A stretch of DNA of 63,677 bases, the filler included, from Parasitella parasitica NRRL 2501 (Eukaryota; Fungi; Mucoromycota): NCBI GenBank assembly GCA_025201805.1. It is 9 parts of 9 records of this genome, joined end to end, with 100 filler letters (N's around TTAATTAATTAA, not from the genome) between each part and the next. Parts side by side here need not be neighbours in the genome. Positions count along the whole stretch, not along the records: positions 55,063 to 56,703 come from MU619385.1; 8 more parts are not named here. The stretch is one strand, 5' to 3'. This document shows positions 12,569-63,566 of the stretch, one piece after another (position 1 is the stretch's first letter; every line of letters begins with the position of its first letter). The notes beneath the pieces are model-generated. The model searched no databases, had not been told where the DNA came from, and saw only the letters and a program-made list of their open reading frames with translations. Position numbers and translations under genes: made by a program.

Positions 12569-14509
12569 CTACAAAGCTGTGTTAGGGTTTTTGTTGTAAA
12601 ATGCAATGACATTTGCGCTCTTGTTTGCAATAAACTGTTTAACGCTTTGTTGGCTAGTGGAATTTATTGTGCCTCCAACAGAGTCATGAAATGTTTGATT
12701 ACTTGGTGAAGTTGCATGTTCCATATCAAAGCCAGGAGGAAAGAAATTATCGACACCTGGCAAGCTGGAAATATTCTCCAATGTCAAATTAGTATAGGTA
12801 TATCCAAGACGGATTAATGATTGGTCCCACTCAACATCAGGGTAGATCATGCCAACAAGACTATCGATAAAAGGATTCATGACAGTAGGGTTGATCAGCG
12901 TCTCACTAAACTTCAAAAGGAGGCCTTGATAGTGCTTCAAAAACTCTTGATTTGCAAACAGTTTCTTGGTCAACGGACGAAGCTCAAAACCAGGATGATT
13001 GCTGTAATTTCCCTCGAGCATATATGATTTTAAAAAGATGGAAGAGCCAATAGATGTGTCTAAATCAGCAGGCATATAGATCATACGCTTGGACTCGGGT
13101 TCGCTGTAGACGTAAAAATTGTCGGCCATGGTCATATATGCATCTGAGAAGCCCAGCAAATCCTCAATGGCCATTCTGCGCACAAAGTTATGAGTACAAA
13201 CACATTTACTCGGACTATTTTCACTTACGCTCGAATAAACCCGTCAGTTTCAAGCTTTCTATTCCACTCTTCAACAGAAGTAGCACTGGTAGTTTCATTA
13301 ACAAACTTGGTAAAGTCTCTCAGTTCCTTATAGTCATCCGGCACTGCGTCACTTTTGGTGCCTGCCTTGATCTTATATTGACCCAAGCTATAGAGCGTCA
13401 TGTTATTACCATAATAGCTCAAATCAGAACCATAGAACTCAGTTTGTGTCAAGGAAAAGGCTTGTCCTTGATATAAGTAACCAGATTTATAATTCTCATC
13501 ACCATTAGCAAATTCATTGGCCAGCCATGGATCCTGAAAAGTCTCAATAATGCCATAGAAACCAGCGGGTTTGTTGTTAAGAAAGACACTGTCGAAAATA
13601 GATGTATACATGATAAGTCCCAAAGCATTTCTCGAGCGTATATATAAGCAACATACGTACCGAATATAAGAGTACTCAGTGCATGGAACGCCAACTGACT
13701 TCAATGTGGCAAACGCGACACGTTCACGGATATAAGAGGCATCGTACCCCATTGCACGCAATTTGAACTTTTTGAAGCCGAAAAGCATGTCCTTGCTCTT
13801 TTTTTTCATCTTGATATTATAAGAAAGTTTAGTGATATACCGAGAACTACGACCAGCAACTGAGACTTTGACATTTTGGAATGTTTTTACTTTATCCAAA
13901 CTAATTTGCACAGATAAAAACCATGTACATAAAATGAGTTCCACTAAAAGTGATTTTTTTTTCCATGTGTATAAAGTACCTATAATATGTCATGTTCAAC
14001 TCCACATCCAAATCCCCATCAAGTTGATTTCCGTTCAAGGCTTGAATAGCAGTTGTATTGCCCCAAAGGTGTATAGTAGGGATTTGGTCATAGATGTGTA
14101 GATCAGACTGAATTCGATTTATGACCGAAATGGGATCCATGATTTGAGGTAATAACTCAACATTATAGACATTCATCGTACGATTGAAGAACTCGTTGTA
14201 GGTTTTCTGATCCTGCACAGGCGTCCTAGAGAACGGTTCAGAGACAGCAATTTGCTGTGATTGATCCACAATGGCATAATGGTAGCCTGATTGAGCAACG
14301 GGTGCCTGGCCCTGATACAAAAGACCACCGTCATTCGGTGTGGCTACAAGAGGATACCTCATATCATCTACAACCACAGCAACCAGCATGCTGCTGGTTT
14401 CAGGTGCGGCAATAACGCTGTAAGTAATATTCTGTTGCCGTGCACTAGCTAAGGAAGCCAACAGCAAGGCCGAAGACGCTATTTTTATTCCATTGAGCCA
14501 TTTAATCAT
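12569..14509 (-). CDS. cotH: CotH-family secreted spore-coat kinase-like protein; 4 exons
   Basis: Signal peptide, NEFFNR, GRSSRYITKLSYNIK, KKFKLRAMGYDASYIRERVAF, GFYGIIE, MAIEDLLGFSDAYMTMADNFYVY and MPADLDTSIG. Confidence 0.9.
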
Positions 14510-15394
14510 TAATTTGTGATACTGTAAATGTAGTTACCAATCCGCTTAAAAATCATATATTTTTTTTTTGACGAAAAAGAAAAAAAGGGTCATAAATCGT
14601 TTTGTTTGTTTTAATCAATACTTAAAACAAATGTGAGCCGAGGGTAAGTTTACATCAGTACAATGAGTTCAGCGTGCATTCATAATATGCGTATGTCCTG
14701 CAGTTGTCACGAATCGTGCCGCTGCGGCGTATCAGCATAAAGAAATAGCTTGCATTAGATTACTACTGTATCACTATAATGACACAACGTTTGTATCATG
14801 CGCATCCAGATTATCATCAGCTCTCAACAAAAGTTGGCAATTGTATCTTTACTGACATGTTGAATACAATAATTGAATAATACATATTGGCCGGTGAGAA
14901 TAAGAACCGAAGAGGACACCTTTGGACTCATAGGAGGCTCAGCGTATTTACTTCATTGACCCTGAGCAGGAATCCTAGATAGGTCTTTTTCAGAACAAAG
15001 ATCCAAGTGTAGAAATGCCTACAAAAAAAACTGAAAAACATGACTATATCATTTATGTTTAACTATTATAATAATATCTTATCAGATAAGCTGATTGAAA
15101 AGATGGCTTACAATCTGCGTTTTTCAAAGAATTCAGCAGAGATTCATAGTACAGAACCCGCAGCGGTCCATTTAGGATGGGATTGGGCAAGAAATGCACG
15201 AGAAATAGGGAATATGTGAGGATACACCAGCTATCACAAATCATCGGCGACTTTTAATAAGCAGTTTGCAATCATATACACGTAAATCCGGTAACATAAA
15301 CAAGAGTACTTTGAAAAGTGCTGGAAAACTTTAACATCTGCTATCATTTTCAACCGGCCGCAGTAAATGCAAGCCTTTGATAAAATAGCCAATA

Positions 15395-42946: not shown

Positions 42947-45900
42947 TCAGAGTATATTGCCTCCATCAAAAAGTGAGTTCAGTATCTGTTTTCTGTACAG
43001 AAAAGATGGGTTTAAATTGTTGAATTGTGTGCGCTTGGCAGTGGCGAGGTTTGGGTCGAAATAGGGGAAATTTACTCCAAACAAGAGACAACCAAGACCA
43101 GCAAGACCAATTGCAAATGCTGAGACTTGGTCGCGGCACATTGTCTTGAAAGCGTTGGAGGCATTCGGGATTTAAGCAAAGGAATGAACCGGTTGTTCCC
43201 TATATTTTGCCATTGAGAGGAGCCACAGGATGAGAGAGCTTGTGTAAGCAGAAAATACACGTTTGCGACGTATTATGTTCATTTGTTATCAGTGTTGGTG
43301 TATAACCGCCATGCTGCTGCTGTTTCCAGGACCCACCAAATCGTCTGTGTCCCTTGATGCGAGAGCCGAATCCGTGTCCACGATCACCGACAAACACAAT
43401 CGGCTCTTTACACCAGGACTCCTTTTCTCGTAAGCTGCTAGTCTGTCAGAGCCTTTTCTGTAAGAATGTTCCAGCCGTCTTCTTCTTTTTGTCATGGATT
43501 GGTTGTAATATAATGAGTGCAACGATGCGTGCGCATTAGTGTGATGCGAATGGGCCTGCTCCAAACCATCAGCTGTTGAGCATTGATAAAGATTATTTTT
43601 TCCAAGACCCTTTCCCATCTCCAAAACTCTGTACCCATTTCCTGTAGTCTTCTTTTTTCGAGCCAACAAATTTGTAAAAGTAGCCAAGATGTTATCTTGA
43701 TTGGTTTGCTTGGAGTCTATAGTAAGAGCACGAGATAGAGTCAAGTGTTCAAAAGCATCAGCTTAATCTGTATTTGAACCATCGGTATTGTCTGCATTTT
43801 TGGTATCTTTTATAGTAGCCACACACGTATAATATCAGTTTCTTTTACTATATACATATGTGTTCAAACGCATAGAATTAAATACCCAAAATCTGAAGCC
43901 TATTATACAGCTTCAAGTGAGATGCGAAACGATCGATATTAAAAAACATTGTCTCAGTAGCCTTTATAATGCCATTATCCGTGCCACTGAGTAAGGCTGT
44001 TGGCAAATATGTTCTTCATTCAGTTTGCATTCCTCTACCTTTCTACAGCATCCCTTGCTACCCACAGTAAAGGGCTTAAATGGTATTAAATTTCTCAAAT
44101 TATCCACTAATGGTTTTCCTTATTTATGAATCTCTCGCCTCAGTGACTGAAGCCTCTCTTTTGTATCTCGAATAGCCACCACTAATCCTCTCTTTCTTAA
44201 CTTTATTATTTCCACATTCTAATAGCACCCGTCTTTTTCTTCAACTTTAGCCTTCCAAATCTTCATAAGATCAGAAGTTTTTCCTTTTCTTGGACTTCTT
44301 CGACTTTCTCATAACATTGTTTTTGTTCTTCAAATTTGGTTCTCCAAGCTTCCTTGAGACCACGAACACTGCCATTGTCTTGAAGAAAATGAAGCAATTC
44401 GTTTGTGTGATCCCTGAGTGACTTATCGTGCTTCTTCTTTTGATCCTTCATAGCTCGTAACTGGTCATCATCGGTATGATGGCTCAGTTTATTTTTGTTT
44501 CAGGGTTTCTGCGGCTAGACTTGAATTGTCCAATGCTGCCATACAGTCTGATAGTCTTCGATCCTGGTAAGATGTGTATTTTATTTACGAACTCCATCCC
44601 ATAGCTTGATGTCACGTTTTCAGTTTGCCAATGTTAAAGAAACTGCTGAAGAAGAAATCTTTATGCTTTACGTAATTGCCTTGAAAGTCTCGAAGATGCA
44701 TCCGTTTTGAAAGTTTGCTCGAGCAGAAAAGTGCATACAGGGTCGTTGTATCAATAAGCAGTGCATGCAAAGTAGTGGGTCTGACTATTGGAATGAATTT
44801 AGCAGCCCGGCCTTCATAGCCGATAGAGCGCAGTACTTGGTTTGCCATAAAGATGAACTTGAGCTGGCATGAAAGGAGATGATAAGTCTCGCTTGATGGT
44901 ATGTATGGCCGAATAAAGCTAGTGATTTTGATGATTGTTGCAGATTTTTGTGTAGTGATTTGTTCATCCTGATCTTGGAGGTGAGCGTTTGTGATATCTT
45001 GTGTGGCAAACAATGCTGATCTTTCAATGTTGACAAACTGACTGATTCTTTTTCTAGATGCATTTGTATTTTTCTCTATCATCAGTGTCGCTTTCTTTGC
45101 TTCTGCTGCTACTGCTGTTGTTGTTGTTCGATGTCTGTGCCTCTCCACGTGCTACATATATTGCGAGTTATGACACTATGTCTTCCATTGAAAACCAGAG
45201 GACTCCTATCCCTCTAAAATACTTTCTCATGTGTATTGATTCTCATTTGGCACATGTCTACTGCCTCCTGCTTTTCTTTCTCTTCGTACTTGGCTTTTCG
45301 CTTCTTTACATCAGAAAACAGCTTTCGTCTTTAATTTCTGGCCTTGTTCAGTACAGAAATTCTGTCATTAGGATACCGCAAATTGCCACTTCCTATTTGC
45401 CTTTGTGGTTTTTTTAAAGCTTGGAATGATCTTGATTGCGAGATAAATGGATCGACAGCAAGAAGTTCAAGAGCTTTTTAAGTTACTTGTTGACAATAGT
45501 ATTTTGGGACCACCAAACACGAAGATTCGTGTAATACTGTTGGCGAGCCATCTTCATTACGCTAGAGGACAAATCTTAATGTGGGTTGGCTTCATCACGG
45601 CACAAAACGCTTACAATTGCTTTGTGGAGAGGTGACTTTTAAGGGTAGACTCTTCAATCTCCCCCCCCTTAACCATAATATATCGAGTGTACTGTATCTG
45701 TTCCAAATGGGACTCTAGAGACAGCAATTGATAGTGAGCATTGAACTCCTCATTCTCGAGACAGCTGGCATCTAATGGCTTTGGTACAGGGATGTCTTCT
45801 TCTAAATTCCCTTCTGGCAGTATCGACGCAATGCTATTTCCACCATCATGAATAGGTTTAGATGTGTTCTTAGCAAACAATAGAGCGACTTTGAGAACCT

Positions 45901-46500
45901 GCTTGCTGAATTCAGAGGTATAATTACATACTTGCTCCATGGTAGCACCGATTGTATTGATGAATAAAACCCTGACGTCGTCCGGCAAGTCGTCCCTGAA
46001 CACTCGATTCAAAGAAGTCGAGCATGTGCAAAATTGCTCACCGTCACCTTGAGTCGCTCCTTCACTGTCTTCATCTTCGCTATCTTCACTGTCTTTATCA
46101 TCTTTGCTACCATCATCCTTCGCTTGTAAATCTAAAAGAGACAGGAAGTTCTTCTCCACAAATTCTGTTCAGTATATATAATTCTTCTTTGGACTTCCAG
46201 CCTTTTATTCTGTTTATATACGGTGCTTAACATCGTTGTGATTTTTTTTGGACCCTTGATTTTTGCTTCTGTTTCTTGCACTAAACCTTTGGGTACTCTA
46301 GAACATTTCAACAAAGAGATGTACAGCTCACCATAGTCTCCATTTTCTTTCTACAATGTACATTTAAGCGTAGAAGACATATTCGAAATTGCGATTGTGG
46401 GCATTCCAGTAAACTGTTTTCAATTCGGATATCTAGCCTTTGCTTCAAGCCCACTGGGTGGCTTCAGAAACGAAGCTGGAGGGTTGATGATGGTTGAGCC
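42947..46500 (-). pseudogene. Degenerate Fanzor1 (eukaryotic TnpB/Cas12-like RuvC RNA-guided endonuclease)
   Basis: RuvC-I SGTDNG (43971-43988), FVGDRGHGFGSRIKGHRRFGG, RuvC-II TNEHNTSQTC, zinc finger CIFC...CLNPEC and RuvC-III MCRDQVSAFAIG, in the correct order. Several stops and frameshifts; the N-terminal limit is uncertain. Confidence 0.82.
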
Positions 46501-48449: not shown

Positions 48450-51290
48450 TTAACAATATCCTGGCTGATACATTATCGCGTCTTTTCTGGCCATATAATA
48501 CGCAGGTGTAGAGTGGTGACAAGCGTTTGAAATTGGTCAAAAAGAATATTGTGGAGCAAAAGAAAAGTAGTAAAAGAAAGAGTAAAGAACAAGTAGACAA
48601 AGAAGTGGCTACAAAGAAGAAGAAGGGATTAAAAGGGAAAGAAAAGCTTGTTGAGAAAGATATACACAAAAGTAAACAAGTGTCTGTGTGTAACTCTCGG
48701 GCTCTCCCGGTATCAACAAAAGTGATCATCCCGCAGAAAACTTCTCATCTGTTTAATGATTCTAAACTGAAGGCTTATGTAAAAAAACTCAAAGGCAAGA
48801 ATGAAGACTTGTACTTTTGTGTTAGCCATCTTGATGTTTATGAATCGCCAGCTAGTGAAGAAGAAAAGCAGAAAGCACTAGAAAAGTCTCACTTGCTTGG
48901 CCATTATGGCATACCATGCGATGGAACAAGTTATCCATCAGGATTTGAATATGCATTGTGTCGATTTTCGCCTATTAATTGAAGGTTGAATCTCATCTCA
49001 ATTCCAATATTGACACTGACATTCAAATGGAATTGTATAAGACTTTTAGAAACCAGGACCAGAGCAATCCTGGCTTCCTTTTCAATCTTTAAAAAAGACC
49101 CTACGTTCTCCGTGATATAATCGCTTGTAGTCTCTTTATTTAATTGTCTTTGGAAATAATCGTTATTCATATAACTCTCACATTGGAAGGGTTTGCGAGA
49201 CGATATCACTAAATATATCGCTAATTGCCACAAATGCAGAAAGTTCAACCTAGGTAAGCACGTTTACCACCCACCAAAGCAGGAAACGCCTGCAGGAGTT
49301 ATGGATCATGTTGTATTTGATCTGGGTGCAATAAAATTGGGATCAATTTTATGTGAAAATAGAAAAAGTAAAAAAATAAAGCCAGAGAAATACAATTATA
49401 GTCTTTCCACCTTTATTTTCGATTATAAGAAAACTGAAGAAAAGATACATGCTCTTTAAGAGAGCTTGTATTTATACTACTTTGTAAAATTGCCTCACTA
49501 CAGTGAAAATGCTTATTTTACAGCTTATTTGAAGAATGACTTTTGTTGACATTCTCTCACTTGTATTGCAGCTGTGATTTTGATATATTGGTATTGAAAT
49601 TGATACTATGGTTCTGGGCAGGATTGTAATATTTGAGGATCCTGATTATTTCTAATGCGACTGAGCTTTCCTTATTGTGTAATAACAAGCTATTTCTGGC
49701 ATCTAGAATTATTGCAATTGTTTTAACAATTGCATTGTTTATACATGTTTGGAATTGGTTTATTTTTAATTATGAGTAGCGTTGTTCAACATTAGCATGT
49801 GCCAGGGTTGTAGGAGATTGTACTTTGATCAGGAGTGCAGGCCTCTACCAACACTTGTTAATGTTTACTTGTGCTTTTCATGTATTTCCTTCTTGGATGG
49901 ACCAGCCATGATCCATCTGGATTTTATTTTAATGTAATTGTGGTGCTATATAATAGGTGCCATTTCATTACACTGGGTAGTTTTTATTGCACTACTCCAA
50001 GAGGAAATAACCTTATTTTGGTGAAGATATGCTTGATCTGTTCTTAAGGTTTGTTGTATTTGTGAAAATCAGAAGAAACACTAAAATAAAATACTTTTTA
50101 AGATGTTTGTTGTTTTATTTTATGTTAGGATGAGGAACTTCTCATGGATATGAATAAACTATAGCTGTTTATAATAAATGTGGAGTTTAAAGATAAAGAA
50201 ATATACCATGATGGTGTGATGTATGATAGACCAATAAACCTGATAGAAAGATTGAAAGTAGATGTTGCTTGATGAAGATAAAAATTGACAACTACAACAT
50301 TAATTGGTGTATTGTAGATCTAAAAAATTTATGGACTTGTTTATAGGCAAGATCTTTATGAATATACCTTTAGATAACTGAAATGTTTATTAAAGTTTAT
50401 ATCACGAAATGGACATTAAAGTTGCACAATTCCGCGGGTAAACCAATGTACAAATCCTGTTCTATGACAGTATTGCGTGCTATTCTTGACAAGTCCGCTG
50501 CTACTGTTGCAAAGGAATTAGTATCATGGACCTTTTCACTTTTCGGATATCCCCTAGTGTTTGGTCATGATCGAGGTGCAGAGTTCCACAACAAGCTGTT
50601 AGAAAAGATACTACAGCATGCTGGTGTGGAAAACAGGACAAGTCTACCTTACAGCCCACAAGGAAACTATTGCTGTGAAGCTGCGGTAAAACGATGCAAA
50701 ACAGTCATCATCATGCAGATGCTGGAAGGATGCAATGAAGATTGGGATTTGTATGTAGATGGCACTGCCTTAAGCCTAAATCTACATAGATCTAGACTGC
50801 ATGGCATGGCGCCATTTGTAGTCATGTTTAATAGATTGCCCAATGGATTTGAGGATCATCGTGGCGATAAGTCCGTACTGCATGAAAGAGAAATTGATGT
50901 TGACGCTCTACAGAAGAGGCTGGATTAGATTGATAGAATTATTTTCCCTGCGATCAGAGAACAGAAGATACGAAAGACGCAAGATAAAGATAGCGAGTAC
51001 TTTAGAAAAAGACATAGAATTCTAGAGAAACCCTTTCCTATTGGATTTACAGTGATGCTCAAGAATATAGAGAATAAGAAGCAGAAGACTGATCCCAATT
51101 ATGAGGGACCCTTCTTTGTGCATGGCGTCACAAAAAACTGGATCCTATATTCTCACTAATAGAACCAATTCGTTCTTGGCACGAAACGTACCCACATAGC
51201 AAATCAAGTTGATTACCACCAATAATGGTGATGAAAATGTGTATGTGGTACAGGCAATCATCAATGATTGAGGTGATCCTCCCAACTGCA
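48450..51290 (+). mobile_element. Ty3/Gypsy pol relic (RNase H end, integrase zinc finger, core, GPF motif, start of a possible chromodomain) with internal insertions
   Basis: NILADTLSR, HLLGHYG...HWKGLRDDITKYIANCHKC (HHCC), DHVVFD, FGYPLVFGHDRGAEF, PYSPQGN, YEGPFFV and YVVQAII. Interrupted at 48959-49180 and about 49330-50470. Confidence 0.85.
48959..49180 (+). mobile_element. Short (222 bp) solo-LTR-like element F with a perfect CATTG TSD
   Basis: cattg|TGTCG...CTCTCA|cattg. Removing it restores the integrase reading LNMHWKGLRDD. Confidence 0.85.
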
Positions 51291-53899: not shown

Positions 53900-54962
53900 A
53901 CTTGGAAGCAGAATATCTGCAAAATTCTTCTAGGTCGCTGATCACCACCTTGTTCCAAGCATCAGAAATTCTAGTGGACAGTGTTTTTGTCAAGTACAAG
54001 ATGATGAGCATTGTTGAGGAGCATGCTGAGGACCTCGCTTGTGTTTACGATTGTAAAAATCTTCAGGAAATCGGGGGGGGGGGAATACATATACGACTTC
54101 CGAGCTGATTTCCATTGAACTTTATGATCTGGTCAACGATTTTGCTATACCCAGAGAAGCATACAGACGATTGGTGAGACTCATGAATAATATGATTAGG
54201 GATTCAGAAAAGTTAGAGAGAGGTACGTATATTTGGCAAATTATCTTCTGTCAAAGTGTCCAAGACTTACCATCATCATACGTAACAGAGACAAATCCAA
54301 AAATTTTCCATGGCCCTCAAGTCGAAAAAATGATGAAGCGGCAAACAAGCTTGGCAGCACACTCATACGATGTATGTGTAAACGGTTGTAAATTGTACAA
54401 CTTGGAGGATGGGCAAACAACTTGTATCTACTGTAATAGCGAGAGATTTGAGGTTGACAGTCCTCGAAAGTCGTTGTCAACAATGAAGATAATGTCGATT
54501 GGCGATATCATATCTCGATTGCTTGCAAATCCTGATACCCATGCAGAGCTCAGATACAGGCATGAGTACGATAATCGAGAAAATGTAGAGCCCAACGTCA
54601 TTGCTGATTTTTTTGATGGTGAAGAATACAAGGCTTTCAAGAACAATAACAACTTTCAAAATGAACATGATGTAGCTATTGCTGTTTTTGATGATGGATT
54701 CGTCACAAAAAAATCGCGGAGGGCGCCCCTTCACTATGATTCATGTCGTTGTTCTCTCATACAATCCTCAGCTACGCTATAAAGAAGAATGTTTAATTCA
54801 ACTTTGCATATTGCCCGGGAAAAAAAAGCCTGCATCGTTCTCATCTTACCTTTCAGTGATTTTGGCAGAAATGCATTATCTTAGCCCGTATGGCATGGTA
54901 GTAATCACACCAGATAACCAAATAATCCGATCTAAAGTGCATTGTCTTGCTTTTGGTGGAGA
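53900..54962 (+). mobile_element. CACTA/EnSpm-like (Tnp2/Transposase_21) transposase fragment
   Basis: YDVCVNGCKLY, CIYCNSERF, DFFDGEEY, DVAIAVFDDGF and PQLRYKEECLIQLCILPGKKKP. Frameshifted and runs into the gap. Confidence 0.75.
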
Positions 54963-55119
54963 NNNNNNNNNNNNNNNNNNNNNNNNNNNNNNNNNNNNNN
55001 NNNNNNTTAATTAATTAANNNNNNNNNNNNNNNNNNNNNNNNNNNNNNNNNNNNNNNNNNNNAACCTAGCTCGATAAGCACTTTTTTTGGCTCTAAAAAA
55101 TGTTCCCGTTCATGCACAT

Positions 55120-56235
55120 CTATATTCTTATGAGAACATTGGCGAGGCCATAGTGATAACGAGGTTCGCAAACATCGATCAGACTCAATGGAGCTGAAGC
55201 CAGACGATTGATTATGAAGGTGACGCTACCGCCTCGATCAGACTTCGGGTCGTAGGAAAAGTAGTTGCCGTCTACAAAAAAGTTGAACGGGTGCTGATAT
55301 TTCTTCAAGGAACTGAGGGTATGAGTATAGGCTAAACTGTTATCATCCACAAACATGAAATCAATCTGATCAAACTCCATACGTTTCGTCCATACGGATC
55401 CAAGGTGGGGCATATTTCCGGTAAGTTTGGAATCGTCATTGATTTCGGGTGGGACCATGATGCAACCAGCGACAGCGGACATGTCATGTTTTATCATGAT
55501 GTCTCCCCAAGTTTCGATGGAGATATCGTAAGCAGAGTGAACTGATATACCCATGACTGCTTTAAAATTGCAATCCTGAGCTTTCTTATTACAGTAGTAA
55601 TGAGGATTTGGTCCAGTGGGATCAAATGCAGTGATGGCGGCGGGGTCCTTTATTATAAGTTTACCATTTTCGTAAGCTCTCTTCCTGGATGTGAGATTCA
55701 TAATTCTCTCGTTTTGTCGGGCGAAATCTTTATGATCCAACAGAGGACAACAAGAGTGTATATGGGTGTAGCCACGAGATATGTGAGTGGAAAAGTTTCC
55801 ACCTACATCAACAATAGGAGTGTTAGGTGGAGTTTCACGCAAAATCATCTCGTATTCCACTACTCTAACAGCTGCTGCTAAAGCGTGTCCACAAGCTCGG
55901 GGATCTTTGTCGGAAAAAACTAATCTAACCTCGGGAAAAGTGCTGATCATGTAATTTTTATCAGAATCGGATAAAACATGTTTTATGGTAACGAGAGGTC
56001 GTTTATCTTCATTTGCACCGTTAGAAGAATCTCTCTGAGTTGCCAAAAATTTATTAATGCTCTCCTCGAATATGGCATTACCAGGGGTGGTCAAACAATA
56101 TTCTAAAAGATCGTCAGCACACTCAACAGGATGGTTGAGTGACTTCATTGTGGGGATAATGTATTGGTCGCGGAGAACGTTGAAATACGCAGATCCGCGG
56201 ACAATATCATTTTTTGTGATACGGTGATTGGACAT
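55120..56235 (-). CDS. Alphavirus-superfamily (tobamo/virga-like) viral methyltransferase-guanylyltransferase, replicase N-terminus; candidate endogenous viral element
   Basis: Intron-less 371-aa ORF with GHALAAAVRVVE (catalytic His), IVDVGGN, HIHSCCPLLDHKDFAR (DxxR), HSAYDI and DDNSLAYTH (conserved Tyr). The motif order and spacing follow the TMV 126K capping domain. Confidence 0.88.
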   Translation of the reverse strand: MSNHRITKNDIVRGSAYFNVLRDQYIIPTMKSLNHPVECADDLLEYCLTTPGNAIFEESINKFLATQRDSSNGANEDKRPLVTIKHVLSDSDKNYMISTFPEVRLVFSDKDPRACGHALAAAVRVVEYEMILRETPPNTPIVDVGGNFSTHISRGYTHIHSCCPLLDHKDFARQNERIMNLTSRKRAYENGKLIIKDPAAITAFDPTGPNPHYYCNKKAQDCNFKAVMGISVHSAYDISIETWGDIMIKHDMSAVAGCIMVPPEINDDSKLTGNMPHLGSVWTKRMEFDQIDFMFVDDNSLAYTHTLSSLKKYQHPFNFFVDGNYFSYDPKSDRGGSVTFIINRLASAPLSLIDVCEPRYHYGLANVLIRI

Positions 56236-56899
56236 GGATGGTTAGGTTCGTGTCTGGTCGGGTCGCGTCGGTTTTGTTTAGTTAATTTGAGTTGAAAGTT
56301 GTAATTAAAGTTGAAAGGAAATGGCGTGAAAGAGGTTGAGGATGCGGTCTGGGGCATGGAAGGCCAGAGCGTATCCGGGAATGTTTAATGCAAAATGAGA
56401 CATCATGTAATGTGAATCATTACAATAACGTCAGTGGAAAATGGTTAGCGAAAAACTAAAAGGGAGTTCTAATTGAAGCTTACGATGTTTGAGTGGTGAT
56501 TGAGTTCTACATTTTGTGTGTAAAATCTAATCACTGGTGCTTATTTTGGACACCTAGCTGCTAAAGCATCACCAGTAGTTAGGATTTTATCACACAAGTT
56601 GGCCATGGTGATAATCACATATTGTCCTCTTCGGAAAACTAGTATAAACGACTGTTTCTAAATGAACTTCATCTAAAAAGCAAGCAACAGTTTTAAAAAG
56701 TATNNNNNNNNNNNNNNNNNNNNNNNNNNNNNNNNNNNNNNNNNNNNTTAATTAATTAANNNNNNNNNNNNNNNNNNNNNNNNNNNNNNNNNNNNNNNNN
56801 NNNGGTTTATCACCAGTCATCCAGTAATACACCTAATCACTAGTCATTAGAACTGATGATAAATGTGAAAAAAAATAGCACTGAAGTTAGCCATGGTGA

Positions 56900-57958
56900 A
56901 TGTACTTTATTTGGCATAAAGTTGTAAAATTAGTAAAAACAAAAGAAAAAGACCAAGTAGAAGCTAACAAAGAAGCTAAGATATGCATTCGGTCATCACA
57001 ATATGCAATGTTTTGGGCTAATCATGCAGGAAGAATCCAATGGAAAAACACCGCCACAAGAGGTCATCTCAAGAATTGAAAGCAACCATGTACAAACAAA
57101 ATATATACTTTATTCAAGTATATTGCTACTGGTGCTAGCATTATTACCACCAGCGTTTTTTTCAACATCTTGAACAACACTTTGGTTAACAGTAGGTACT
57201 TCTTCGTCACTTTTTGCTCTCAAATGAACATTTGTATGGTCGTGAGAAGACCATAAATAAACTTTCACTCAAAACAGATGCGATGTTTGGAATGCAATAT
57301 CATAACAAATATTTGGTAGCAAATGTTACTACAAGCACAAAAAAAACCGAAATGTCTCAGAAATAATATTATATAATAATTAAAAATGAGCTATCTCGAC
57401 TTTTTTTATTAACGCACATTCTGGGGCAAAATTATTTATGTTCTCACAAGCACATAAATGCTCCCATGACCCTAATAATGTTCCCATTTGAGCACATTTA
57501 TGTTCACCGAGAACATCCAGGAGGCCATAGTGCAAAGATTGCATCTGTTTTGAGTAAAAGTTTATTTATGCTCGCACGATCATACAAATGTTCATGTCAG
57601 AGCAAAAAGTGACGAAGAAAAACCTACTGTTAACCAAAGTATTGCTGAAGATGATAAAAAAAAAAGCCGCTGGTTATGATAATGCCAGCACCAGTAGCAA
57701 TATACTTGAATAAAGTATATTTTTGTTTATACATGCCTTGCTATCAAATGTTGAGATGACCTTGTGGCGGTGTTTTCTATTGGCTTTTTACTGCATGCTT
57801 AGCGCAAACATTGCATATTGTGATGACCGAATGCATATTTTAGCTTCTTTGTTAGCTTCTCCTTGGTTTTTTTCTTTTGTTTCCACTAACTTTATAAGCT
57901 GGTATTTTAACTTAAAAAACATACAATATTAGCACATTTTGTGCCAAACATAAGTACA
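56900..57958. repeat. Long imperfect inverted repeat (~390-bp arms, ~245-bp spacer); foldback/MITE-like
   Basis: About 56900-57288 is the reverse complement of about 57533-57958, e.g. atatgcattcggtcatcacaatatgcaatg versus cattgcatattgtgatgaccgaatgcatat. Confidence 0.85.
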
Positions 57959-58686
57959 CTATACAGAGTACCAACATCTTTACGTATCTGTAGTTTCATC
58001 ATAAGAAATTGTAGCTTCTTTTTTATCAAAGAACAGCTTGCAGTATAGCTTGGAATAGAAAAATGAGACGCAACATATTTTGTGTATTTCTATCATCATG
58101 GTATGTATTCGAGTTTATTCTAACAAACTATTAATTCTTTTGTCAATAATATATAGAGGCTCTACTCAGTTCAATCTTTCATATGAGAGCATGGTATTGC
58201 TATGTGCATTAAATTGTTTGTAGCAACTAAATGACTGACTACTTTTACTGCTGAATATAGGCAATAGCTAAAGATGATGCTATGTATGAAAATTGTTTTT
58301 GCAATATACGTCGTTTGGGTGTCAATGTCAAGGTAGTTTTGAGTACTTTTTGGCTTGCTTCTTTTGCTTTATTCATAAACACTAAAATTAGATTTCTTCT
58401 ATTATTTAGGCATGCTACAGGTATAATTTTGTGCCCAATATCTGAACATATACGATAATATGAGAGGTTTGTTGCTCATTTTTGCCCTGGATACTAGAAG
58501 TTATGAAGCTAAACCTTGCTACTTTTTTTCAAGATGTTGCCTCCTTGCTTCTTTTTTCAGGTATTACAGTATATATGATTTAGTGTATCATTGTTGGATC
58601 TAAAAATATAAAATAAAAACCAAAGGTTAACGAGATACGAAAACTAAAGATACTTTATTTAAGATCGAAATTGCATCTGCTATTTA

Positions 58687-59612
58687 TGTTGTGCCAGGTC
58701 TTGAAAATGAGCACAGCAGGTGATTGTATGTGATATAAGAATATAAGAATGTAATTAAAGACTTAGTTCACCAGATACAAAACTATTGATTTATTAATTG
58801 ACAAGAAGATGTCTATTTATATTAGAATAAATCTATCTTCTAAATCAATCTATAAAATACAATCAGGTCATCTTTGACATTTAATTGTCAAACAAGATTA
58901 TAACACAACAGTAGTAGTCAGAGCAGGACCTATTTCTATATTTAATCAGCTAATCGTTATGAATGATCTGCCATAATGTAGGTTAGGAGATCATGATAGT
59001 GTACTTCAATTAAAGATTGGAGATTGTCCAATGATGTCTTGTTATACTGGTCGAAACAAGAGAGCAAAGTCTTTGTTTCAAATCAGGAAGGTTATCTGTA
59101 ACACAGATCTGTATGATTGACAAACAATAAGGTACTGTCAGATCAAAGATCAATAACCTTGTAGTATAATAATTTATCGTACCCTGTTAAGGATATGATG
59201 TTGCTTGCAAATTATTCTTATCGATTAGTATCGACTAGTATTTTAAATAAGTCACCAAAAATTTATGTTGTTGTAAAAAGTATAAATAGCAGATGCAAAA
59301 TTGAATCTTTAATAAAGTAATCTCAAGTTTTCGTATCTCGTTAATTTACCGTTTTATATTATACTTTTCTTATTTCGATCTTGCAGATCTCAACAATGAA
59401 TGTGAATCATTCATCGATAAGTTGAGCTTCGCAATTTAGAATAATAAGAAGAACCCAAATAGATGGTTTCTTATACAAGACATTCTATTGAATACTTCTA
59501 CTTACTAGATAGAATAATCGATGCCATTTAACCTTAGATACGATCAGGAATGGTTGCCATGACAACTGAGTTAAAATAGTGGTAACCATGATGGTATTCT
59601 ATGGATACAACA
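58687..59612 (-). mobile_element. Solo LTR B (inverted) with an ATTTA/AATTA TSD
   Basis: Reverse complement of 30339-30814 once the internal insert is removed. Confidence 0.85.
58964..59395 (-). mobile_element. A-related solo LTR (432 bp, TG...CA) with a perfect ATGAA TSD
   Basis: atgaa|TGATCTG...TCTCAACA|atgaa. Its reverse complement shares ttaacgagatacgaaaact, tgcatctgctatttatactttttacaac and ggtgacttattt with family A. Confidence 0.85.
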
Positions 59613-59828
59613 AATTATACTTTTTACAACTGAATAAATTTATGGTGACTTATTTAAATTACTAATTGACAAGACTAATTGACAGTGACAATCTATTTGA
59701 CAGGGTATGAATGAGGTTATACAGCAAGNNNNNNNNNNNNNNNNNNNNNNNNNNNNNNNNNNNNNNNNNNNNTTAATTAATTAANNNNNNNNNNNNNNNN
59801 NNNNNNNNNNNNNNNNNNNNNNNNNNNN

Positions 59829-61510
59829 GAAAAACAATCAAATCTGATTCACCCGCATTCAAATCTAATTCTTCTACTCCTGTCACTAATTGAACGTCAT
59901 CAGAGTTCTTGTTCCCAGGAAGATCAGGGATAACTTCATTTAGGCGATTGGCCAAATCATCGTCTATGGGCAACTCAGAAGTTGGGATGGCAGCATCCAC
60001 TTGAGCCATCTCTTGATTTTGAGACTTGAAGTCCAGAATTTTTGTGTGATCCCAGCAGTTTTTGATGATTTGAGGCTTCACTTTGAGCCAAGAATCAGCC
60101 AAGAAGTAAAGTGCATCAACCTCATCCATTCTGTATTGTTCAGCATAATCAAGGCTTACTCCCGAAAGATACTTGTTGGCTGCTCTATAGTATTGGTGCA
60201 AACGAAATTGGGCTTTGAAATTAGCAATAATTCCTATTATATTATAGTAAAGAGTTAGGAGGATAAGAATGTAATGTGAAAGAAAGTTGAGAGCATTAGA
60301 TTACCAGCATCCAAGGGTTGTAATTTACTCGTAGTGTTTGCAGGAAGAAAAATCAACTTAATGTTGCTGAATTCTTCTTTCAGTTTGTGCACAGAGGCAT
60401 TGTCAACCAAGATTGCTACATTTTTTTTGGCGTAAACAAACGAGGAATTCAAGCGCTTTATGTATTGTCGAAAAACATCAGTCGTCATCCATGCACTTGG
60501 AGTAGAATGGTACTCGACGTAGTGAGACTGACCAATGCAAGTAGTTTTTCGATATAAGGCTGGCTTTCTTGTGGCGGCTCTGGGGTTTTTTCTTCTCCCA
60601 AGTACGATAGGATGGCCTTTGTAGGATCCATCATAATTGGTAACAAGTCCAACTGTGAATCTATTCTTACTTTTTTTTGATCCACCCATTGGCTTCTGGC
60701 TAATTGTACGAGTTGGTTGTTGCTCGTAGTATAACCCAGTTTCATCGAAGTTCAAGATGTCCTTCGGATTATAAGGCTCTAAAAGTTTCTCAATCTTTTC
60801 GAGCTCCTGAATAATGTTGCTAGAGGTAAGATCGACAGAGCTTTCTTCGCCATAAAGGTGTCTTGACTTAACACCAATCCTTTTGAAAACTTTAGTCAAC
60901 CATCCTTCAGAGAATGTGATTCTACGACTTGGAGGCAGTTCATTCATCTTGTATTTTCTGTTTGCGATCACTTTTGCAAAAGTTGCAACAGTTAGTTGCG
61001 CGATTTACAGGAATGGATTTTTCATTCATACTTTGAATGTACTGCAGGATGTCGTTGTCTAGTGAGGGAATTGCTGTCTCTTTGCTGCTTTTTAACTTGG
61101 TATTGCCATTTGCGTACAACTTGAAAACCTTGTCCTTTGCATACAAAACGTTCGAGATGGTTTTTTGGCTGACAGACTTAGAAAGGTTGAATTTTTCTTG
61201 TGCCCATTCGCCGAGTGCTTTTTGCGCAAGTTTAGGAAACTGGGCATTATGCATACAGATTTCGTACTTTTGCTCGATAGTGAGACGCTCTCTTGATTGT
61301 TGATTATTAATGCTCATAGTATAATAATTGTTTGTCAAAATATGCCTTTTTAAGAATAAAGAAGTAAATGGATTAGATTGGACATGTGTCAAATTAACCT
61401 AATAGCTGTAGTATCTATACGTGTGACTGTTTTAAGAGTAATAGTCACATGCACGATGTAAAGCTAAAAAACGCTTGCAAAAAAAGTAGCCTTAAATCGA
61501 GCGGCTACTG
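59829..61510 (-). mobile_element. pogo/Tigger (CENP-B-like) DNA transposon: TIR plus transposase with one intron and one frameshift
   Basis: RLTIEQKYEIC (psq-like HTH), FSEGWL, LYGEESS, NFDETGL, AWMT, LVDNASVH and FLPANTTSKLQPLDAG/IIANFK. The CAGTAG TIR ends at 61510 next to TA. Confidence 0.88.
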
Positions 61511-63414: not shown

Positions 63415-63566
63415 TCTTGAATGCAGCAAAGTCTTGCGCTGCTGTCTTGAGTGTGGCAAGTTCTTGAGCCACTGTCTTGGGTGACTCAAGACTCAAGACT
63501 TAAGACTGTGGCTCAAGAATTTGCTACGCTTAAGACAGCAGCTGAAGACTTATGCTGCGCTCAAGA
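63415..63566. repeat. Inverted repeat (~65-bp arms, ~23-bp loop) built from TCTTGAG/CTCAAGA motifs
   Basis: gctgctgtcttgagtgtggcaagttcttgagccactgtctt pairs with aagactgtggctcaagaatttgctacgcttaagacagcagc. Confidence 0.8.

What the first reader, a model, noticed from the sequence alone, without database searches (positions are those of the whole stretch)
55120..56235. Intact RNA-virus capping enzyme ORF in fungal DNA: candidate non-retroviral endogenous viral element (virga/tobamo-like)
Seen in sequence: a 371-codon, intron-less, uninterrupted ORF with H, DVGG, HSCCP, DxxR, HSxYD and YxH motifs. Established knowledge: this is the methyltransferase-guanylyltransferase at the N-terminus of Martellivirales (Virgaviridae/Bromoviridae-like) replicases, and these +ssRNA viruses have no DNA stage. 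Inference: a viral RNA was reverse-transcribed, probably by retroelement RT, and integrated. The neighbouring TE ORFs carry stops or frameshifts while this one does not, so it is either recent or conserved. It could record an unknown Mucorales-infecting virga-like virus, or be a co-opted capping enzyme or antiviral element.
Basis: partly seen in the sequence, partly recalled or inferred. Interest (0 to 1): 0.88.

Follow-up and report, generated by a model that had tools for sequence, protein, structure and literature searches.

The report
Truncated RNA-virus gene in fungal chromosome
A 1.2-kb piece from the front end of an unknown RNA virus sits in this fungus's DNA between transposon ends, but its capping-enzyme gene is cut short and predicted to be inactive, so it is likely a recent fossil of a fungal virus, probably copied in by a retrotransposon, rather than a working enzyme.

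Summary
The viral origin and the integration hold; 'intact enzyme' does not. The ORF (56235-55120, minus strand) encodes an alphavirus-supergroup methyltransferase-guanylyltransferase (PF01660 E 4.5e-34; chikungunya nsP1 fold, Z 23). It lies on its own 1,641-bp contig. Six DNA runs of five studies hold it, and contigs bridge both junctions with host repeats, so it is not contamination. Only 55156-56380 is unique: a 145-nt leader plus 360 codons. The last 11 codons and the stop come from a CACTA-type transposon end. About 140 residues of the capping domain (most of the essential Iceberg region) and the helicase are missing. The leader is fused to a 44-nt repeat end that looks like an LTR start, and ATAACG stands at both breakpoints (candidate target-site duplication). 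[quoted passage not shown] Most likely a recent, neutral, retroelement-made insertion. Virga-like sequences in Mucorales genomes were already noted in 2024; the virus lineage and the readable junction are new.

The parts
55156..56235 (-). Virus-derived coding stretch: first 360 codons of a Martellivirales-type replicase (N-terminal extension, MTase-GTase Core, about 57 residues of the Iceberg region)
   Evidence: unique, flat depth and 0 differences in the contigs of X1, X2, X4 and X7
56236..56380 (-). 145-nt leader, G-poor (10%), read as the viral 5' untranslated region; holds one upstream ATG
   Evidence: leaders of 35 relatives run 30-431 nt, median 70. That it is viral is inferred
56340..56376 (-). 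GC-rich stem-loop at the start of the leader; apparently shared with a second low-copy locus
   Evidence: z -3.08 for the first 71 nt, 3 of 200 shuffles as good; contigs of X1, X2, X4 all stop at 56369
56381..56424 (-). Terminal 44 nt of a high-copy repeat, starting TGTAATG on the minus strand; likely the U3 start of an LTR (LINE 3' end or DNA-transposon end not excluded)
   Evidence: Other copies continue alike before 56381 (agreement 0.79-0.82, TATA-like box in 3 of 4 runs, read by eye) and diverge behind 56424 (0.46-0.66); last 30 nt also in X11 and X13
55156..55161 (+). ATAACG, left copy of candidate target-site duplication
   Evidence: exact 6-mer match at both breakpoints, chance 4e-4 (0.008 with 2 nt slack on each)
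56425..56430 (+). ATAACG, right copy of candidate target-site duplication
55063..55155 (.). End of a high-copy CACTA-type DNA transposon (reads CACTATGGCC on the minus strand); supplies codons 361-371 and the stop of the ORF (55120-55155)
   Evidence: second copy ending at 57532, 75% over 60 nt. Family name rests on the terminal word (recalled rule) and the next row
54057..54962 (+). Frameshifted Transposase_21 (CACTA Tnp2)-like ORF on the preceding contig; may belong to the same CACTA element
   Evidence: Atlas score 0.95, family on 10% of the top cluster's members; no Pfam hit; adjacency across the linker not shown
56425..56703 (.). Nested host repeats (56425-56495, the interrupted target; 56496-56610, ending in a CACCATGGCC terminus; 56611-56703)
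54963..55062 (.). Assembly linker (N44-TTAATTAATTAA-N44); another at 56704-56803

Best explanation
This is a single chromosomal insertion of the first 1.2 kb of an unknown Martellivirales-type RNA virus, likely recent and likely made when a retrotransposon reverse transcriptase switched templates at the viral 5' end, and its shortened protein is predicted to lack capping activity. Shown: viral domain, presence in DNA, both junctions, truncation, host-derived stop. Inferred: the reverse transcriptase copied viral plus-strand RNA to its 5' end, jumped onto the element's own RNA 44 nt inside U3 and finished an integrase-ready TG end; the cDNA went into a repeat cluster, leaving ATAACG duplicated; the other end is not an LTR end and abuts a CACTA terminus. 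Inferred: the donor was a mycovirus of this host's lineage, and the insert is a neutral passenger. My odds: real integration 0.95, inactive as a capping enzyme 0.85, retroelement template switch 0.65 (LTR 0.45, LINE 0.2), no function 0.75.
For: 6 of 16 listed runs hold 81-85% of the words, from 5 studies. In 3 laid DNA runs the unique contig has 0 differences over 1,242-1,260 nt and depth like ordinary contigs (168 vs 121-135; 28 vs 31-32; 36 vs 31-40). X2 bridges the low junction by 46 nt and X7 the high one by 41 nt. The model matches nsP1 residues 3-302 of 452 only. PMC4392871 (passages): Core alone is not enough, Iceberg is 155-260 aa and deletions in it leave under 1% activity; 57 viral residues remain here. 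No further viral piece in the window. CpG o/e 1.01 against 0.73 in host DNA. RmVV1 is fifth non-self hit of 453. Virus-LTR hybrids are documented in mosquito cells (PMC6797480, passages).
Against: The 44-nt end is not tied to a reverse transcriptase by any search (metagenome scan empty). The left end lacks TG, so normal two-ended integration does not fit, and the left hexamer sitting exactly on the CACTA edge is a second coincidence. No empty site was seen. Pfam alone does not show truncation: PF01660 also stops at 226-236 in full-length RmVV1-clade proteins. 2 of 54 tblastn matches run past 55156 into the repeat. Identical sequence in all carriers may mean one strain under several labels, and two samples have one run with and one without the stretch. 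The tree does not reject a plant-virus placement (AU 0.079).
Confidence: 0.62

Rival explanations
1. A LINE made it by target-primed reverse transcription: the 44 nt are a LINE 3' end on the plus strand, and the enzyme jumped to the 3' end of the viral minus strand, then stopped after 1.2 kb.
For: Explains a short duplication around an insert with only one element end, and a start at the viral 5' end. Template jumping by R2 is shown in vitro (PMC8857657, abstract). The upstream consensus of other copies has one frame open in 4 of 4 runs, running into a stop at 56396-56398 (read by eye).
Against: Differences among those consensuses are mostly amino-acid changing, while the TATA-like word is the best kept part in 3 of 4; no A-tail; terminus reads TG...CA.
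Confidence: 0.2
2. A longer insertion was later split by the CACTA element, so the rest of the replicase lies beyond the transposon on another contig; the hexamer match is then chance.
For: The virus sequence ends exactly at a CACTA terminus; a Tnp2-like ORF lies on the preceding contig.
Against: Hexamer match has chance 4e-4 to 0.008; no viral remainder in the window with 53 queries and a 1,105-position profile. The whole genome was not available.
Confidence: 0.2
3. The insert works as heritable antiviral memory: it is transcribed from flanking repeats and yields small RNAs against the virus's 5' end, or a truncated protein that poisons replication rings.
For: Holds the 5' leader and start of the replicase in a repeat cluster; Mucor has active RNAi (search listing); EVE-derived piRNAs exist in mosquito cells.
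Against: Found only in one lineage with no divergence, so no sign of selection; the U3 piece stops before its TATA box; the membrane-binding part of the protein is missing.
Confidence: 0.15
4. A co-opted, working cytoplasmic capping enzyme.
For: Core catalytic residues H117, D170, R173, Y303 are kept; the Core folds confidently (pLDDT 77.7).
Against: Most of Iceberg is missing; C-terminus is read-through into a repeat; no orthologue above 37% among 1.84 billion representatives.
Confidence: 0.04
5. Contamination or a chimeric contig.
For: Short contig in a fragmented assembly; no single listed piece spans the whole 1,641 bp.
Against: Several DNA studies hold it with bridged junctions and ordinary depth; a plus-strand RNA virus has no DNA stage (established knowledge).
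Confidence: 0.04

Closest known systems
[quoted passage not shown]
   Same: Mucorales host; MTase at the N-terminus; 30-33% identity, E 3.6e-26; shares a 91/91 branch in the careful tree. The authors suggest endogenization for the genomic homologues.
   Different: A separate long branch outside the starred RmVV1 clade; MTase rather than RdRP; junctions were not analysed in the passages and Discussion I read; the insert does not start with RmVV1's CAGU.
Curvulavirus-like RdRP EVEs of Mortierellaceae and Phycomyces (PMC7482067, PMC12548735)
   Same: Non-retroviral RNA-virus sequence in Mucoromycota DNA.
   Different: Those are dsRNA-virus polymerases, old, expressed and spread across a family; this one is from a plus-strand virus, truncated and confined to one lineage.
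Virus-LTR retrotransposon hybrids and EVEs of Aedes cells (PMC6797480; PMC6580184)
   Same: Viral fragment joined to a retroelement-like end inside a repeat cluster.
   Different: Fungal host; element class not proven; no small-RNA data.
Alphavirus-supergroup MTase-GTase (PF01660; chikungunya nsP1, PDB 6z0v)
   Same: Core fold (Z 23.0, rmsd 2.9 over 258 residues) and catalytic residues.
   Different: Ends at the equivalent of nsP1 residue 302 of 452; no helicase or polymerase follows.

Membership tests
Alphavirus-supergroup MTase-GTase | Core with conserved His, DxxR and Tyr of strand G | tested here: met
   H117, D170/R173 invariant in 16 of 16 rows; Y303 in 15 of 16
Alphavirus-supergroup MTase-GTase | PF01660 above cut-off and nsP1-like fold | tested here: met
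   118.4 bits vs 27; Foldseek E 9e-15, VIA Z 23
Alphavirus-supergroup MTase-GTase | Complete Iceberg region (155-260 aa), needed for activity | tested here: not met
   57 viral plus 11 host residues after Y303
Alphavirus-supergroup MTase-GTase | Capping activity | not testable with these tools
   Needs an enzyme assay
Non-retroviral endogenous viral element | Present in DNA, joined to host sequence at both ends | tested here: met
   the high junction is bridged by 31 or more letters only in X7, whose type is a guess, and in the window's own contig
Non-retroviral endogenous viral element | Empty site or orthologous locus in related strains | tested here: inconclusive
   4 of 9 non-holders laid; they also lack most flanking repeats, no joint
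Virgaviridae (tobamo-like) | Replicase groups with virgavirids | tested here: inconclusive
   Free tree places it apart; AU 0.31 with two tobamo-type rows, 0.079 with all ten plant-type rows
Virgaviridae (tobamo-like) | RdRP, movement and coat protein genes, rod-shaped particles (recalled) | not testable with these tools
   Not in the insert
RmVV1-like fungal virga-like viruses | MTase inside the RmVV1 clade | tested here: inconclusive
   Outside the 100/100 three-row clade, inside a 91/91 ten-row group; AU 0.27 for sister position
RmVV1-like fungal virga-like viruses | Segmented genome with shared 5' ends | tested here: inconclusive
   No CAGU at the insert's start; hint of a second locus sharing 56340-56369
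LTR retrotransposon end (56381-56424) | TG terminus and U3 TATA box | tested here: met
   TG at 56424-56423; TATA-like word in other copies in 3 of 4 runs, read by eye
LTR retrotransposon end (56381-56424) | Linked gag-pol, PBS, PPT | not testable with these tools
   No genome; metagenome scan empty
LTR retrotransposon end (56381-56424) | Second TG...CA end at the other side of the insert | tested here: not met
   Sequence after the left hexamer starts AGG
CACTA transposon (55063-55155) | CACTA terminus where copies diverge | tested here: met
CACTA transposon (55063-55155) | Linked Tnp2 transposase and 3-bp duplication | tested here: inconclusive
   Atlas lead on the preceding contig; no Pfam hit; far end not seen

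The most novel reading that the evidence does not exclude
A freshly captured virus-retrotransposon hybrid in a Mucorales fungus, possibly one of two or more captured segments of an unseen segmented mycovirus, that feeds the host's RNAi with small RNAs against the viral 5' end: EVE-based heritable antiviral immunity of the mosquito kind, in a fungus.
Probability: 0.1. Interest if true: 0.8.

Novelty: new member of a known kind. Interest (0 to 1): 0.45.

Why it matters
It records a Martellivirales lineage with no match above 37% in the collections searched, and gives an undecayed probe for finding the living virus. PMC11351042 says the mechanism of such endogenization in these fungi is not well understood; here both breakpoints can be read, so the retroelement route can be tested with one long-read set. 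It is also a caution: an open frame with all Core motifs is not an intact enzyme.

Tried and rejected
No genome was held. Word-index protein searches found only the query, nothing or five distant fragments. Single-protein scans of viral and metagenome contigs found no relative. PDB sequence search empty. The single-sequence fold was unusable (pLDDT 33.8). No RNA holder listed; X7 is only guessed to be RNA and is not taken as expression. Absence in X8, X9, X11, X13 is no proof and gave no empty site. Rfam found nothing on the contig. The metagenome scan for the 44-nt end was empty. The left half of the interrupted repeat was not found near the insert (two 3-mismatch hits near 63450-63530, not followed). 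A host-taxon look-up failed. The sigma-70 scan is irrelevant to a eukaryote. Endornavirus origin was considered and dropped as unlikely: named top hits are virga-, bromo- and martelli-like, though no endornavirus row was in the trees. Earlier scan findings concerned other things.

Full report
Observation. It scores 118.4 bits on PF01660, residues 88-349, profile 5-241 of 310. An AlphaFold2 model from a 16-row alignment has mean pLDDT 77.7 and matches chikungunya nsP1 best (Foldseek E 9e-15; Z 23.0, rmsd 2.9 over 258 residues, against 11.6 for the first row that is not nsP1). The domain call is secure.

Setting. The window is a row of contigs joined by N-TTAATTAATTAA-N linkers; the ORF lies on 55063-56703. 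The transposon ORFs cited as neighbours are on other contigs. The host is a fungus; Mucorales is inferred, not named by any search. No genome was held.

Is it in the chromosome? Of 16 runs listed, 7 hold part of the contig, 6 of them 81-85% of its words; those six come from five studies, one of which may be the source. I laid 4 of the 7 holders. From about 55156 to 56380 depth is flat and like that of ordinary contigs in the same run (168 vs 121-135; 28 vs 31-32; 36 vs 31-40), with 0 differences over 1,242, 1,260, 1,244 and 811 nt. Outside it, depth in the three DNA runs is some 25- to 650-fold higher: host repeats. The tool warns that depth is no copy number. X2 bridges the low junction by 46 nt (X1 and X4 reach only 28 and 30); X7 bridges the high one by 41 nt. 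Caveats: the carriers may be few strains, two samples have one run with and one without the stretch, and 531 pieces and 87 loose ends were not shown. Four of nine non-holders, when laid, lacked nearly all flank repeats as well, so they are probably other lineages and gave no empty site.

The ORF is not intact. The repeat begins at 55155, so residues 361-371 and the stop are host sequence. A profile from 54 relatives (picked at 70% from 96 usable of 146 loci) has 452 positions; the ORF ends at 306, while 10 of 10 top hits printed reach 434-450, RmVV1 included. A second profile from 12 MTase-helicase proteins aligns up to residue 360, position 344 of 1,105. The model covers nsP1 residues 3-302 of 452. 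Against this reading: PF01660 also stops at 226-236 in 3 full-length RmVV1-clade proteins of 12 scanned, so Pfam alone proves nothing, and 2 of 54 tblastn matches overrun the junction. PMC4392871 (passages) reports that Core alone is inactive, that the Iceberg region after the conserved Tyr is 155-260 aa, and that deletions in it leave under 1% activity. Here 57 viral residues follow Y303. Inactivity is a prediction. The open frame needs no selection: a stop is 50% likely only after 1.7% and 95% after 7.2% random change.

Junctions. Low side: the repeat ends in a CACTA-type terminus where other copies diverge; a Tnp2-like ORF lies on the preceding contig (Atlas lead; Pfam silent). High side: a 145-nt G-poor leader opening with a stem-loop, then 44 nt of another repeat that ends at 56424. 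On the viral strand this end starts TGTAATG, and other copies continue into a TATA-like word in 3 of 4 runs (read by eye). Beyond it lies a third repeat whose other copies have different sequence before 56425, so it was interrupted here. ATAACG stands at both 55156 and 56425; chance 4e-4, or 0.008 with 2 nt slack. The rules for LTR and CACTA ends are recalled.

Mechanism. I commit to a template switch by an LTR-element reverse transcriptase at the viral 5' end, followed by integration with one proper end. It explains the start at the leader, the shared polarity and the short duplication. It does not explain why the other end lacks TG or sits on the CACTA edge. A LINE jump (PMC8857657, abstract) and a later split by the CACTA element remain open. 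Virus-LTR hybrids are known from mosquito cells (PMC6797480, passages), and ticks show a non-LTR bias (PMC6580184, passages).

Which virus? phmmer over 1.84 billion representatives gave 453 hits at E 0.001 or better; the best non-self is 37% over residues 86-342. [quoted passage not shown] In 111 relatives from viral contigs, the best 80 shown reach at most 33%. A careful tree of 33 hand-picked rows puts the ORF on a long branch (1.49) in a 91/91, unstarred group with the RmVV1 clade and unnamed 1,030-1,170-aa proteins. Three earlier quick trees left it unresolved (one search dropped 14 of 41 hits). AU tests reject neither tobamo-type (0.31), RmVV1-sister (0.27) nor plant-group (0.079) placement. 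Genus labels on the anchor rows are my guesses from genome size and domains.

What is known. PMC11351042 (passages, whole Discussion, supplement passages; figures not visible) describes RmVV1 and notes RdRP homologues in R. arrhizus assemblies as possible endogenization. PMC7482067 and PMC12548735 (passages) describe dsRNA-virus EVEs in Mucoromycota; PMC9603141 (passages) lists Rhizopus viruses. The second of the EVE papers screened by RdRP and would miss this MTase piece. Searches showed no paper on this locus; most subscription papers are outside the library, and supplements of the EVE surveys were not opened.

Verdict. A real, probably recent and neutral EVE fragment from a new virus lineage, a new member of a known kind, with unusually readable junctions. 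Interest 0.45.

Noticed in passing
window 56310-56380: In X1, X2 and X4 the unique contig stops at 56369 and depth rises slightly from about 56310, implying a second low-copy locus that shares the leader stem-loop: another captured segment or host sequence.
   Followed up: partly
window 56358 to about 56146, minus strand: An upstream ATG inside the stem-loop opens a 70-codon frame overlapping the start of the main ORF.
   Followed up: no
window 43289-46168, minus strand: Broken ORFs that resemble, from memory, the Fanzor-type nuclease elements of Mucorales; no Pfam hit.
   Followed up: partly
window 12569-14533, minus strand: Intron-containing CotH-family gene (PF08757), a family that includes Mucorales invasion proteins (recalled).
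   Followed up: partly
window 56922-57897 and 58616-59669: Long nested inverted repeats (88-92% over 92 nt) of foldback-type elements, one holding a second CACTA-type end at 57532.
   Followed up: no
window 59830-61398, minus strand: Frameshifted pogo/CENP-B-like transposase (DDE_1, HTH_ABP1_N).
   Followed up: partly
window 50374-50928: Retroelement integrase fragment (rve, E 8e-4, under cut-off); no link to the 44-nt end found.
   Followed up: partly
window 56395-56424: This 30-nt terminus, ending in a perfect 7-bp hairpin, is kept with 2 differences in two runs (X11, X13) that lack most other flanks.
   Followed up: partly
proteins P0008, P0024: Two unnamed Logan proteins (1,450 and 1,320 aa) form a 100/100 clade with RmVV1 RNA1, about 45% identical in the MTase: likely undescribed relatives.
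   Followed up: partly
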